NCBI GenBank assembly: GCA_030603385.1
Contig: JAUVXW010000019.1
Location: 1-64,000 of the forward strand
Reading direction: 5' to 3'
Source of the DNA: Promethearchaeota archaeon
GTDB lineage: Archaea > Asgardarchaeota > Lokiarchaeia > Sigyniarchaeales > SOKP01
DNA: 64,000 bases
Shown here: piece by piece, positions 2,045 through 31,296 of the stretch
Layout of the letters: the number at the start of each line of letters is the position of its first letter
Position numbering within the stretch: the first letter of the stretch is position 1
Notes under the pieces: model-generated
Databases searched by the model: none
Seen by the model: only the letters and a program-made list of their open reading frames with translations
What the model was told of the DNA's origin: nothing
Made by a program: the position numbers and the translations under genes

Positions 2045-2654
2045 ATGGGACGTCGTAAAAGAAAACAAGCTGCACCAAAAAGGGTTAAAAGAGTACCTAA
2101 GATCTTCACCTGCCCAGATTGATAAAATTGATTCCCGATTTTTCATGGATTGCGGTGAAAAGAGTGTTAAAGTTACTGATATTAAGAAAAAAGGTGCTTT
2201 TGCAACCGTAAAGTGCGGAAATTGCAGTCTAACAAAACAGGTATTAGTTAATTCTATTTCAGAACCAGTTGATGCCTTTGGAGATTTTATAGATATTTTT
2301 TATGCAGATCAAGAGATCCAAAGGTTAGAGAAGCGAAATCATAAATTAAAAGATGAGAATGAATGGGGAGAACTTGCGTTTTCTTACTCAATTTTATCAG
2401 ATCTTTGCAAAACCAAAGCTGCAATATTATTGGAAGAAGAAGATGTTAACCTGGAAGAAGTGAATGATTGGAAAATAAGAAGTGAGTATTATAAAAACCT
2501 TGAAAAAGATGCGCTTTTGAAACTTGAAACGGATGAATTAGAGAGAGGAGTAAGAACAGATGAAGAATCATTATTCGCTGAAAGCGATACAAAAATAAAA
2601 AAAGAAAGAAAAATAGACGATATATTTGATGATCCCGGTTTTCTAGAATTTTAA
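2045..2654 (+). CDS. elf1: Transcription elongation factor Elf1 with a C-terminal acidic extension; spliced gene, join(2045..2119,2151..2654), 192 aa
   Basis: Exon 1 MGRRKRKQAAPKRVKRVPKIFTCPD plus exon 2 CGEKSVKV...VKCGNCSL...SEPVDAFGDFID gives the Elf1 signature (basic N-terminus, FTCPxC, CxxC, EPVD). SD-like AGGAGA at 2031-2036. Confidence 0.9.
2120..2150 (+). other. Candidate 31-nt bulge-helix-bulge-type intron in elf1 mRNA
   Basis: Exon-exon stem TTCACC(T)GC/GCGGTGAA; central helix CCAG/ATGG with one G.A; 3-nt bulges ATT at 2118-2120 and 2149-2151; inner hairpin GA(T)AAAATTG-ATTCC-CGATTTTTC. Cutting after the 2nd nt of each bulge restores the frame. Confidence 0.8.
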
Positions 2655-18387: not shown

Positions 18388-19878
18388 TTGATTAATAATT
18401 TTAAGATGAATGTAAATAAAGTTGGGGAGAATATTTACGAGATCCCTCCTAAGACTTTGATGGCAAGGATTCAAGGGAATATAGAGAAGTTCCAGATGAG
18501 AGTTCCTGTTAGAATTTATGCAAACAACTATATATTAGAAAAGATAAAACAGGATCGCACATTAGATCAAATAGCTAATGTAGCTTGTTTGCCAGGAATA
18601 CAGAAACATGCTATTGTGTTATCTGATGCCCATCAAGGATATGGATTTTGTATAGGTGGAGTTGCTGGAACTGATGCCGAGACGGGAATGATTTCTCCTG
18701 GAGGTGTTGGTTATGATATTAATTGCGGTGTACGTTTATTAAGAACAAATTTATTTCTCAACGACATTAAAAAGGTGCTTCCAAATTTATTAACCAATAT
18801 TTTTAATAAGATCCCTTCTGGTTTAGGTTCAAAAGGTAAATTAACTATAAATTATTCTGACTTAGATAACGTTTTGAATAACGGAGTGAACTGGGCTTTA
18901 GAAAAGGGGTATGCAATTGAAGAAGACATAAAACATTTAGAAGAAAACGGATGTTTAAAGAATGGTAATGCAGATTTAGTATCTCAGAAAGCAAAGCAAA
19001 GAGCGATTAAACAACTTGGCTCTTTAGGAAGTGGAAATCATTTTCTTGAAATCCAAAAAGTAGATCAGATTTATAATAAGACAATTGCAGAAAAATTAGG
19101 AATAACTGAAAAAAATCAAATAACTGTAATGGTTCATACAGGAAGTAGAGCATTAGGTCATCAAGTTTGTACAGATAGTTTACGAAATATCGAACAAGCA
19201 ATGAAAAAATATAAAATTAGAGTACCAGATAGAGAACTTGCCTGTGTGCCAGCAGATACACCTGAAGCACAAAATTATTTACAGCAGATGGCATGTGCTG
19301 CCAATTTTGGTTTCACTAATCGTCAGTTGATAACTTATTGGTTAAGAGAATCCTTTCAAAATGCATTTAATAAAGATGTTGATGCATTAGATATGCATAT
19401 GATTTATGGAGTTTGTCATAATATTCTAAAAATAGAAGAACACAAAATAAATGGTAAAAAAATGAAACTGAATGTCCATCGTAAAGGTGCAACAAGAGCA
19501 TTTCCACCAAACCACCCTGCGTTACCTCAAGATTATAAAGATATTGGTCAACCAGCCTTTATTCCTGGAACTATGGGATCTGCTTCATATTTATGTGTGG
19601 GTAAACCAAAAGCTATGGAATTATCTTTTGGATCTACTGCTCATGGTTCTGGTCGTTTAATGTCTAGATCGAAGGCTATAAAAAGATATTGGGGTACTAA
19701 AGTAAAAGAAGATCTAAGAAAGAAAGGTATTTTAGTAAAAAGTGCTTCTATGAAGGTTTTAGCTGAAGAAAGTCCTGGAGCTTACAAAGATATTGATCAA
19801 GTAGTTCAAGTAAGTCATGATCTAGGAATTGTCGAAAAAATTGTAAGGCTTGTTCCAGTAGGGGTTGTAAAAGGGTAA
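18388..19878 (+). CDS. rtcB: RNA-splicing ligase RtcB
   Basis: DAHQGYGF, GVGYDINCG, GSGNHF, HTGSR, HRKGATR, STAHGSGR, EESPGAYK. Confidence 0.97.
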   Translation: MINNFKMNVNKVGENIYEIPPKTLMARIQGNIEKFQMRVPVRIYANNYILEKIKQDRTLDQIANVACLPGIQKHAIVLSDAHQGYGFCIGGVAGTDAETGMISPGGVGYDINCGVRLLRTNLFLNDIKKVLPNLLTNIFNKIPSGLGSKGKLTINYSDLDNVLNNGVNWALEKGYAIEEDIKHLEENGCLKNGNADLVSQKAKQRAIKQLGSLGSGNHFLEIQKVDQIYNKTIAEKLGITEKNQITVMVHTGSRALGHQVCTDSLRNIEQAMKKYKIRVPDRELACVPADTPEAQNYLQQMACAANFGFTNRQLITYWLRESFQNAFNKDVDALDMHMIYGVCHNILKIEEHKINGKKMKLNVHRKGATRAFPPNHPALPQDYKDIGQPAFIPGTMGSASYLCVGKPKAMELSFGSTAHGSGRLMSRSKAIKRYWGTKVKEDLRKKGILVKSASMKVLAEESPGAYKDIDQVVQVSHDLGIVEKIVRLVPVGVVKG

Positions 19879-31202: not shown

Positions 31203-31206
31203 TTAG

Positions 31207-31296
31207 AGCCTCTGGGGGGAATTGAACCCCCGACCTTCAGATATTTCTTCTACATTTGAATACGAATCTGATGCTATACCACTAAGCTACAGAGGC
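31207..31296 (-). tRNA. tRNA-Thr(CGT) with a canonical 37/38 intron (31243-31260, 18 nt)
   Basis: GCCTCTG/CAGAGGC acceptor; TCAGA-TTCGTA[intron]A-TCTGA; T arm GGGGG-TTCAATT-CCCCC. Confidence 0.92.

What the first reader, a model, noticed from the sequence alone, without database searches (positions are those of the whole stretch)
2045..2654. tRNA-type (BHB) intron interrupting the elf1 mRNA inside its zinc finger: candidate non-spliceosomal mRNA splicing in an Asgard archaeon
Seen in the sequence: a typical Elf1 N-terminus (ATG 2045, MGRRKRK...IFTCPD) runs into TGA TAA, and the rest of Elf1 (CGEK...CGNC...EPVD) resumes 31 nt later in another frame. Deleting 2120-2150 gives CCA GAT TGC GGT = CPDCG and a 192-aa protein. 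The region folds as exon stem TTCACC(T)GC:GCGGTGAA, a 4-position central helix CCAG:ATGG (one G.A), two 3-nt ATT bulges on opposite strands and an inner hairpin with a 5-nt loop. Cleavage after the 2nd base of each bulge removes exactly 31 nt. The exon codons forming the stem end in C (TTC ACC TGC) in an AT-rich genome. Established: the archaeal splicing endonuclease EndA cuts BHB motifs and RtcB ligates; the crenarchaeal cbf5 intron is the classic protein-gene example; eukaryotic XBP1 uses a short frameshifting intron ligated by RTCB. Inference: Elf1 output here depends on the tRNA-splicing machinery and may be a regulatory switch. Standard gene callers would give only a truncated hypothetical ORF. 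I cannot verify whether this has been described.
Basis: partly seen in the sequence, partly recalled or inferred. Interest (0 to 1): 0.95.

Follow-up and report, generated by a model that had tools for sequence, protein, structure and literature searches.

The report
tRNA-type mini-intron splitting Asgard elf1
The gene for transcription elongation factor Elf1 in this Loki-type Asgard archaeon is broken by a 31-base insert shaped like a tRNA intron; relatives either keep it with compensating mutations or lack exactly those bases, so the mRNA is very probably cut and rejoined by the tRNA-splicing enzymes, which the papers I could search report for only one other archaeal coding sequence (cbf5).

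Summary
elf1 (Pfam PF05129) is split into exon 1 (2045-2119) and exon 2 (2151-2654) by 31 nt (2120-2150). These fold as a relaxed bulge-helix-bulge (BHB) motif.

One sequence alone is weak evidence: fold z-score -1.8, and 0.3% of genome positions fit as well. The comparative evidence is strong:
- 18 distinct same-site introns in related Promethearchaeota genomes, against 44 exact intron-less junctions.
- Compensatory changes in 9 of 23 pairs, including one between the wobble base of the Pro codon and the intron.
- Intact exons, with median dN/dS 0.06.
- TTC-ACC exon codons tied to intron presence.

Two divergent elf1 paralogues in the same genome carry a 30-nt BHB at the same codon. BHB geometry, not reading frame, picks the CxxC-restoring junction there. 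The same geometry rule hits position 37/38 in four tRNA introns of this genome. Two EndA paralogues and RtcB are present.

Splicing itself was not seen: the only joined RNA contig comes from an intron-less relative. Strains about 98.6% identical lack the intron, so an essential regulatory switch is unlikely.

This scan has already noted BHB mini-introns in protein genes on other Asgard DNA and on other contigs of this genome. None of the notes returned concerns elf1. Verdict: new member of a known kind.

The parts
2045..2119 (+). elf1 exon 1 (25 codons, MGRRKRK...IFTCPD). It carries the first Cys of the first CxxC zinc knuckle.
   Evidence: PF05129 profile positions 1-26. Conserved in all 17 intron-bearing orthologues.
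2120..2150 (+). 31-nt BHB intron. It begins with in-frame TGA TAA. The inner hairpin is 2121-2144 with a 5-nt loop.
   Evidence: Relatives about 98.6% identical lack exactly these 31 nt.
2151..2654 (+). elf1 exon 2 (167 codons plus stop). It holds the rest of the Elf1 zinc ribbon (C-GEK...CGNC) and a C-terminal extension of about 110 aa.
   Evidence: PF05129 profile positions 28-77, 38.5 bits.
2105..2113 (+). 5' strand of the outer exon-exon helix (TTCACC-T-GC), built from the Phe, Thr and Cys codons.
   Evidence: helix 1, 97.5% paired. The codon choice is tied to intron presence.
2114..2117 (+). 5' strand of the central 4-position helix (CCAG). It pairs with 2145-2148 (ATGG): 3 pairs plus a G.A position.
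   Evidence: Column 18:49 covaries as AU 11, UA 3, GC 2, with none unpaired.
2118..2120 (+). Bulge 1 (A-T|T). The predicted 5' cut is after 2119.
   Evidence: The cut rule was validated on tRNA introns.
2145..2148 (+). 3' strand of the central helix (ATGG), inside the intron.
2149..2151 (+). Bulge 2 (A-T|T). The predicted 3' cut is after 2150.
2152..2159 (+). 3' strand of the outer exon-exon helix (GCGGTGAA), built from the Cys, Gly and Glu codons.
18568..19875 (+). rtcB, the RNA 3'-phosphate ligase presumed to join the exons. It is the only RtcB match in the genome.
   Evidence: PF01139, 558 bits, profile positions 1-426.

Best explanation
elf1 carries a genuine archaeal BHB intron of 31 nt.

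Proposed mechanism (inferred):
- In the pre-mRNA, codons 20-23 of exon 1 pair with the first three codons of exon 2 to form the outer helix.
- The next four exon bases pair with the last bases of the intron to form the central helix.
- The intron forms an inner hairpin.
- This leaves two 3-nt bulges on opposite strands.
- The splicing endonuclease cuts after the second base of each bulge. Here it is probably an (alpha-beta)2 heterotetramer of the two EndA paralogues, the type that tolerates relaxed motifs.
- RtcB joins the exons, giving an mRNA for a 192-aa Elf1 with an intact CPDC...CGNC zinc ribbon.
- Unspliced mRNA ends translation at the UGA that forms the first intron codon.

Splicing is most likely constitutive housekeeping, not a switch. 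The intron is old: it is shared with a lineage about 70% identical and with two paralogues. It is repeatedly and exactly lost.

Shown: the motif, its conservation and covariation, selection on the exons, and the presence of the enzymes. Inferred: the cleavage, the ligation and their efficiency.
For: (1) The split lies inside one Pfam domain, at profile positions 26/28.

(2) There are 18 distinct intron-bearing junctions (17 of 31 nt, one of 32 nt) at the same codon, against 44 exact intron-less junctions. Among 34 classified genus genomes, 10 carry the intron.

(3) Structure counted on alignment A1:
- 89.9% of cells are paired, against 45-50% when the 3' partners are slid.
- 9 pairs show changes on both sides.
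- 0 of 500 shuffles reach the observed values.
- 7 of 9 inner-hairpin pairs are compensatory.
- The central pair between the Pro wobble base and the intron reads AU 11, UA 3, GC 2 and is never broken.

(4) Among the six cut positions that give the same product, the coding junction is the unique best BHB register in all 18 alleles.

(5) The same cut rule lands exactly on position 37/38 in four canonical tRNA introns of this genome. Two of them also have only 3 of 4 central pairs.

(6) Two paralogues on contig C2 have 30-nt inserts at the same codon with a perfect CCAA:UUGG central helix. BHB geometry gives CPK|CG, a CxxC motif. An intron-less relative reads CPKCG.

(7) Spliced CDSs of all intron-bearing genes are intact. 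Median dN/dS is 0.063 over 119 pairs.

(8) Exon codons TTC-ACC occur in 16/17 intron-bearing genes and 2/43 intron-less ones. In independent sister pairs the trait goes the same way in about 5 and the opposite way in 0.

(9) Only 3 of 18 alleles have any in-frame start codon for exon 2. No uninterrupted elf1 was found in this 94%-complete genome.

(10) Two EndA paralogues, each with N-terminal and catalytic domains, and one RtcB are present. [quoted passage not shown]
Against: - No spliced RNA of this allele was seen. The one RNA contig with the 31 nt missing is only 94% alike. The same joined form also occurs in a DNA run, so it belongs to an intron-less relative.
- The central helix has one mismatch in 17 of 18 alleles, and RNAalifold leaves it open.
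- In the majority group an alternative GAG:CUC pairing competes with it.
- The outer helix shows no double compensatory change; it is only conserved.
- The single-sequence fold is not significant (z = -1.8).
Confidence: 0.85

Rival explanations
1. The same EndA/RtcB splicing occurs, but it is used as a regulatory switch of the XBP1/HAC1 kind. Elf1 output would be tuned by the activity of the tRNA-splicing or RtcB pathway, with the unspliced form giving only a 25-aa peptide.
For: - A stop codon is the first or second intron codon in all 18 alleles.
- All three elf1-like genes of the genome carry the intron.
- The intron has been retained across deep divergence.
Against: - The intron is absent, exactly, from strains about 98.6% identical.
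- It is absent from 24 of 34 classified genus genomes.
- The gene tree needs at least 7-12 changes of state. A required switch would not be lost so often.
- The UGA follows from structure: the third bulge base plus the first two inner pairs.
- There are no expression data.
Confidence: 0.1
2. Programmed translational bypassing, as in phage T4 gene 60 or the mitochondrial 'byp' elements. The ribosome would take off at the codon before the stop and land on a matching codon 31 nt downstream, with no RNA cutting.
For: - A stop directly follows the take-off codon.
- A hairpin lies in the gap.
- Take-off and landing codons are identical in 14 of 18 alleles (GAA/GAA or GAT/GAT).
Against: - The two codons differ in 4 alleles: L003 GAA/GAT, L032 and L034 GAA/AAA, L072 AAT/GAT.
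- They also differ in both paralogues (AAA/GAT), where a matching-codon hop would not give CxxC.
- The covariation is between exon 1 and the 3' end of the intron, and between exon 1 and exon 2. That is BHB-specific and has no role in bypassing.
- The identical codons follow from the two-fold symmetry of the bulges.
Confidence: 0.04
3. A decaying gene: a small insertion with a 5-bp target duplication (GATTG) that inactivated elf1.
For: - 5-nt direct repeats flank the insert.
- The insert brings immediate stops.
- Intron-less alleles are common.
Against: - Homologous inserts occur in at least 16 distinct sequences with compensatory changes.
- Exons are intact, with dN/dS 0.06 at saturating dS.
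- No other copy of the insert exists in the genome.
- No intact elf1 was found to replace it.
Confidence: 0.02
4. A split gene giving two polypeptides: a 25-aa N-peptide plus a 169-aa protein started at the intronic ATG 2145. This is how public gene calls read it.
For: - ATG 2145 lies in frame with exon 2.
- The 169-aa ORF is what the databases hold.
Against: - 15 of 18 alleles have no in-frame start codon between the last stop and exon 2.
- The 169-aa product would lack half of the first zinc knuckle.
Confidence: 0.02

Closest known systems
BHB intron in the cbf5 (pseudouridine synthase) pre-mRNA of Crenarchaeota (Watanabe 2002; Yoshinari 2006; Yokobori 2009, PMC2738675)
   Same: - A BHB intron inside a protein-coding sequence.
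- Presumed removal by a hetero-oligomeric splicing endonuclease plus ligase.
- Lineage-specific losses.
- It causes wrong gene calls.
   Different: - A different phylum (Asgard/Promethearchaeota) and a different gene (elf1, three paralogues).
- Far patchier: 10 of 34 species, and polymorphic at about 98.6% identity.
- The exon part of the motif shows covariation with the intron and a codon-choice signature.
- cbf5 splicing was shown by RT-PCR and in vitro; here it is inferred.
tRNA introns of the same genome (canonical 37/38 BHB introns)
   Same: - The same geometry: a 4-position central helix, 3-nt bulges, and a cut after the second bulge base. It was verified on four tRNAs, two of which have 3 of 4 central pairs.
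- Similar size: 17-22 nt against 31 nt.
   Different: - The host RNA is an mRNA.
- The outer helix is made of codons rather than the anticodon stem.
- There is no tRNA body to help recognition.
BHB intron in the 5' UTR of Haloferax volcanii HVO_1309 (PMC7714728)
   Same: An mRNA substrate of EndA. It was shown by circRNA-seq and in vitro cleavage.
   Different: It lies in the UTR and does not interrupt codons. That paper states that cbf5 was then the only other mRNA case.
IRE1/RtcB splicing of XBP1/HAC1 mRNA in eukaryotes
   Same: - A short, frame-changing, non-spliceosomal intron in an mRNA (XBP1 intron 26 nt, from my own knowledge).
- Ligation by RtcB in metazoa.
   Different: - The cutting enzyme is IRE1, which recognises twin stem-loops, not EndA on a BHB.
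- XBP1 splicing is stress-regulated, and nothing here indicates regulation.
- This is a resemblance in how it works, not family membership.
Translational bypass elements (T4 gene 60; mitochondrial byps)
   Same: A short coding gap with a stop after the take-off codon, a hairpin, and mostly matching flanking codons.
   Different: The matching codons are not universal. The covarying pairs define a BHB motif.

Membership tests
Archaeal BHB (splicing-endonuclease) intron | [quoted passage not shown] | tested here: met
   - The bulges are A-U-U at 2118-2120 and 2149-2151.
- The central helix is 2114-2117 with 2145-2148: 3 pairs plus G.A.
- It is therefore a relaxed motif, not a strict one. The helix is perfect (4/4) in L072 and in both paralogues.
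- Two of four bona fide tRNA introns of this genome also have 3/4.
Archaeal BHB (splicing-endonuclease) intron | Flanking helices: an outer exon-exon helix and an inner intron helix (hBHBh'). | tested here: met
   The outer helix of 10 pairs is 97.5% paired. In the inner hairpin, 7 of 9 pairs are compensatory.
Archaeal BHB (splicing-endonuclease) intron | Cuts at the symmetric bulge positions give the functional product. | tested here: met
   - A cut after the second bulge base removes 2120-2150 and restores CPD|CG in frame.
- This is the unique best register in 18/18 alleles.
- In the paralogues it picks CPK|CG, which matches an intron-less relative.
- The rule reproduces position 37/38 in four tRNAs.
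Archaeal BHB (splicing-endonuclease) intron | The structure is conserved by covariation across homologues. | tested here: met
   9 pairs and 26 cells with changes on both sides, reached by 0 of 500 shuffles. Slid controls give 45-50% paired.
Archaeal BHB (splicing-endonuclease) intron | The cognate enzymes (EndA, RtcB) are encoded. | tested here: met
   Two EndA paralogues lie at C44:18795-19019 and C9:36254-36502, each with PF02778 and PF01974 domains. RtcB is at window 18568-19875.
Archaeal BHB (splicing-endonuclease) intron | The intron is absent from mature RNA, or a circular intron is present. | tested here: inconclusive
   The joined form in RNA run X17 lies on a contig with 30 differences in 497 letters. 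It is also present in DNA run X1. It therefore comes from an intron-less relative.
Archaeal BHB (splicing-endonuclease) intron | Cleavage by the endonuclease in vitro. | not testable with these tools
   This needs recombinant EndA alpha/beta and a transcript of about 2090-2170.
Elf1 (Pfam PF05129 Zn_ribbon_Elf1) | A domain match over the curated cut-off and four zinc-binding Cys residues. | tested here: met
   - Exon 2 alone scores 38.5 bits (cut-off 29.8).
- Exon 1 matches profile positions 1-26.
- The spliced product reads C-P-D-C ... C-G-N-C.
- Intron-less 192-aa cluster mates are recorded as PF05129.
Programmed translational bypass (gene 60 / byp type) | Matching take-off and landing codons. 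| tested here: not met
   The codons are unequal in 4 of 18 alleles and in both paralogues.

The most novel reading that the evidence does not exclude
Elf1 supply in these Asgard archaea is gated by the tRNA-splicing/RtcB pathway, as an archaeal counterpart of XBP1/HAC1 splicing. All three elf1-like genes of this genome need EndA and RtcB. Unspliced mRNA stops at the first intron codon. The intron-plus and intron-minus haplotypes that coexist within a species would then be functionally different alleles, kept by selection or exchanged by recombination together with their flanking exon codons.
Probability: 0.1. Interest if true: 0.9.

Novelty: new member of a known kind. Interest (0 to 1): 0.7.

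Why it matters
(1) It adds a well-supported case of tRNA-type splicing of a protein-coding message. Here it lies in a core transcription factor shared with eukaryotes, in their closest archaeal relatives. The literature I could search knows this inside a coding sequence only for crenarchaeal cbf5. PMC7714728 says so explicitly. A 2026 survey of Elf1 in 218 Asgard proteomes (PMC13289920) does not mention introns.

(2) Public gene calls are wrong here. They hold a 169-aa ORF that starts inside the intron. Proteome-based surveys will therefore miss or truncate such genes.

(3) The elf1 intron offers an unusually clean natural experiment. Intron-plus and intron-minus alleles differ at about 98.6% background identity, with five clustered synonymous differences in the exon part of the motif. 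That shows how an RNA structure constrains codons, and what happens after intron loss.

(4) The exact, repeated losses next to 5-nt direct repeats give a testable model of intron turnover in prokaryotes.

Tried and rejected
- RNA evidence. Only metatranscriptome contigs with small shares were available. The single 31-nt skip in RNA (X17) sits on a 94%-alike contig. It also occurs in DNA (X1), so it is an intron-less relative and says nothing about splicing. X15 and X16 do not cover the junction.

- Exact scan of metagenome contigs for the joined junction. It gave five hits, all on contigs of 4.9-34 kb, which by their length are probably DNA carrying intron-less alleles (sources not checked, contigs not examined further). 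None is transcript evidence.

- Database look-up for a 192-aa protein identical to the spliced product. None was found. The nearest has 2 differences and lies on multi-gene DNA contigs.

- My own genome-wide BHB plus ORF-join scan. It gave 40,472 raw candidates, 7,868 after a codon-usage filter and 23 after a fold filter. elf1 ranked third. The scan missed both paralogues and the uL11 case, and most other hits look spurious. It is too insensitive, so I dropped it as a census.

- Exon-exon complementarity counted with G-U pairs allowed. It does not discriminate. I replaced it with codon identity.

- Alternative pairing GAG:CUC in place of the central helix. It is possible in the majority group, but only 66.7% paired, and column 49 follows column 18 better than column 24.

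- Mobile-element idea. There is no second copy of the intron in the genome, only chance 11-14-nt matches.

- A search for the C2 paralogues in 54 genus genomes found only the main orthologue elsewhere.

Full report
**What is there.**
The window (contig C39 of a 3.9-Mb, 30.8% G+C genome) carries an elf1 gene.
- Its first 25 codons (2045-2119) end in ...IFTCPD and run straight into TGA TAA.
- The rest of the protein (CGEK...CGNC...) resumes at 2151 in another frame.
- Pfam PF05129 matches exon 1 to profile positions 1-26 and exon 2 to 28-77 (38.5 bits, cut-off 29.8). So 31 nt (2120-2150) interrupt one contiguous zinc-ribbon domain, between the third residue and the second Cys of the first CxxC knuckle.
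- Named relatives are Promethearchaeota/Promethearchaeia MAGs. The Asgard assignment therefore holds.
- The insert is not an assembly artefact. A Logan contig of the best-holding DNA run covers 2047-2177 without a difference. The truncated ORF is recorded from three contigs.

**The fold.**
The minimum-free-energy structure of 2100-2165 has these parts:
- an outer helix between exon 1 (TTCACC-T-GC) and exon 2 (GCGGTGAA)
- a short central helix between the last exon-1 bases and the intron's 3' end
- a 3-nt bulge on each strand
- an inner hairpin with a 5-nt loop.

Read as a BHB, the central helix has 3 pairs plus a G.A position. Cutting after the second base of each bulge removes exactly 2120-2150.

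On its own this is weak. The z-score is -1.8, and 0.3% of all genome positions meet the same geometry at one length.

**Comparative evidence.**
I collected 78 orthologous loci from whole-genome searches and the named GTDB collection.
- They give 18 distinct intron-bearing junctions (17 of 31 nt, one of 32 nt), always at the same codon. They also give 44 junctions that lack the insert exactly.
- Of 34 species genomes of the genus that I could classify, 10 carry the intron.

On the alignment of the 18 intron regions (A1), the BHB structure behaves as follows:
- It is 89.9% paired, against 45-50% when the 3' partners are slid.
- Nine pairs show changes on both sides, and 0 of 500 shuffles reach the observed values.
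- Seven of nine inner-hairpin pairs are compensatory.

Most telling is the central-helix pair between the wobble base of the Pro codon (exon) and an intron base. It is A-U in 11 rows, U-A in 3 and G-C in 2, and it is never broken. The neighbouring central position is a mismatch in most alleles, so the motif is relaxed.

RNAalifold leaves the central helix open as a symmetric 7/7 loop. An alternative GAG:CUC pairing is possible in the majority group but fits worse.

Six cut positions would give the same product, because of the 5-nt repeat. Among them, the coding junction is the unique best BHB register in all 18 alleles.

**Calibration on tRNAs.**
Four tRNA genes of this genome have canonical-position introns. 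The same geometry rule scores best exactly at position 37/38 in all four, with central helix 3-4 of 4 and outer helix 5 of 5. The cut rule is therefore right for this organism, and one central mismatch occurs in its bona fide substrates.

**Paralogues.**
Contig C2 holds two tandem, divergent elf1-like genes. Their exon 2 again starts at Pfam profile position 28.
- Each is interrupted at the same codon by a hairpin insert.
- Reading frame alone would allow a 27-nt gap, giving CPKN|CG or CPKD|CG.
- BHB geometry, with a perfect CCAA:UUGG central helix, predicts a 30-nt intron and CPK|CG, which is a proper CxxC motif.
- An intron-less relative (G007, L085) reads CPKCG.

The structure thus predicts the right protein where the frame does not. 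A family search finds no uninterrupted elf1 in this 94%-complete genome.

**Selection.**
- Spliced CDSs of all 17 full-length intron-bearing genes are intact. Median dN/dS is 0.063 over 119 pairs at saturating dS.
- Only 3 of 18 alleles offer any in-frame start codon for exon 2. The two-polypeptide reading is therefore not conserved, although it is exactly what public gene calls contain (a 169-aa ORF from ATG 2145).
- The exon codons that build the outer helix are TTC-ACC in 16 of 17 intron-bearing genes and in 2 of 43 intron-less ones. In independent sister pairs the association goes the same way in about 5 and the opposite way in 0 (p about 0.06).

**Turnover.**
- On the gene tree, intron presence needs at least 12 changes, 7 of them on well-supported branches.
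- Intron sequence types follow the clades (a TGATAA type against a TGAGTA type). A lineage about 70% identical (L072) has a 31-nt intron at the same site. The intron is therefore old and vertically inherited, and it is lost exactly many times or exchanged by recombination.
- Metagenome contigs 98.5-99% identical to the window over 3.6 kb lack exactly the 31 nt.
- In that background of 1.4% divergence, five synonymous differences cluster in the 21 nt upstream of the site, where 0.29 would be expected (Poisson P = 1.4e-5). AAG, ATC, TTC, ACC and CCA become AAA, ATA, TTT, ACA and CCT.
- Two readings fit. The haplotype block may move by recombination. Or, after loss, the leftover exon-exon hairpin may be selected against. 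Junction 60-mers with TTCACC fold at a median of -10.5 kcal/mol, against -7.75 for the others.
- The 5-nt direct repeat (G-A-[A/T]-T-G) at both borders follows from the two-fold symmetry of the bulges. It offers a simple route to exact deletion. This last point is inference.

**Machinery.**
The genome encodes two EndA paralogues of about 200 aa, each with the N-terminal and catalytic domains.
- This fits the (alpha-beta)2 type. By PMC5829648, that type and epsilon2 are the only ones that cut non-canonical introns.
- A 2026 preprint finds two full-length paralogues in 44 of 60 Asgard genomes (10.64898/2026.10.13.758758).
- The only RtcB gene lies in this window (18568-19875).

**What was not shown.**
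No RNA of this allele with the intron removed was found.
- The one joined RNA contig (run X17) differs at 30 of 497 positions. The same joined form is present in a DNA run, so it comes from an intron-less relative.
- Searches of metagenome contigs and of the protein collection for the spliced form found only intron-less DNA alleles.

Splicing therefore remains an inference, though a strong one.

**Rivals.**
- Translational bypassing deserves mention: a stop follows the take-off codon, there is a hairpin, and the flanking codons are equal in 14 of 18 alleles. But the codons differ in four alleles and in both paralogues. The covarying pairs link exon 1 to the intron's 3' end, which only a BHB explains.
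- The pseudogene, mobile-insertion and two-polypeptide readings are contradicted.
- A regulatory switch is not excluded, but it sits badly with the intron's absence from near-identical strains.

**Known or new.**
- In the papers I could search, a BHB intron inside an archaeal coding sequence is described only for crenarchaeal cbf5 (PMC2738675). A 5' UTR case exists in Haloferax (PMC7714728, which states that cbf5 was the only other mRNA example).
- Searches combining Asgard or Lokiarchaeota, BHB, mRNA and Elf1 found nothing on this.
- Earlier notes of this scan report the same kind of mini-intron in other Asgard genomes and in other genes of this very genome. None of the notes returned concerns elf1.
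- I checked one of them in part. The single uL11 gene (C41, about 68050-68150, minus strand) is indeed frame-broken by a hairpin insert between ...ALVTGG and ...ASGGPPIGP.

The elf1 intron is thus a new member of a known kind, and probably one element of a genome-wide set of spliced mRNAs.

Noticed in passing
G000 contig C2:857-2511 (locus L083), outside the window: Two tandem, divergent elf1-like genes (about 41% identical to each other). Each has a C-terminal YPYPYVFKPP stretch and an extra zinc ribbon, and each is split by a 30-nt BHB insert at the same codon as elf1. With this query they were found in no other of 54 genus genomes. Whether the 11.9-kb contig C2 belongs to the chromosome or to a mobile element is open.
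   Followed up: partly
G000 contig C41, about 68050-68150, minus strand (locus L116): The only uL11 gene is frame-broken between ...VKALVTGG and ...ASGGPPIGP by an insert that folds into a long hairpin with the flanking exons. I confirmed the break and the hairpin, but not the exact cut sites.
   Followed up: partly
window 2099-2119 against loci L128-L130: Five synonymous differences cluster in the 21 nt upstream of the intron site. They separate this genome from intron-less strains about 98.6% identical (expected 0.29, P = 1.4e-5). The cause is either co-converted flanking exon sequence or fast selection against the leftover exon-exon hairpin.
   Followed up: partly
window 2145-2654: Public records (NCBI, Logan; 3 contigs) call a 169-aa ORF that starts at an ATG inside the intron. 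Cluster mates at 90% identity or more are 192-aa intron-less Elf1 proteins.
   Followed up: yes
window 31206-31296, minus strand: A tRNA-Thr (CGT) of 91 nt, about 15-19 nt longer than a standard tRNA. It may carry an intron at a non-canonical position that ARAGORN's intron mode did not report.
   Followed up: no
window 18568-19875, plus strand: The genome's only rtcB lies 16 kb downstream of the split elf1. I saw no evidence of a functional link beyond the shared contig.
   Followed up: no
whole genome G000: ARAGORN finds only 18 tRNA genes in 3.9 Mb, 7 of them with introns. Many tRNA genes are probably missed because of non-canonical or multiple introns. This fits the preprint on heavily interrupted Asgard tRNA genes (10.64898/2026.10.13.758758).
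   Followed up: no
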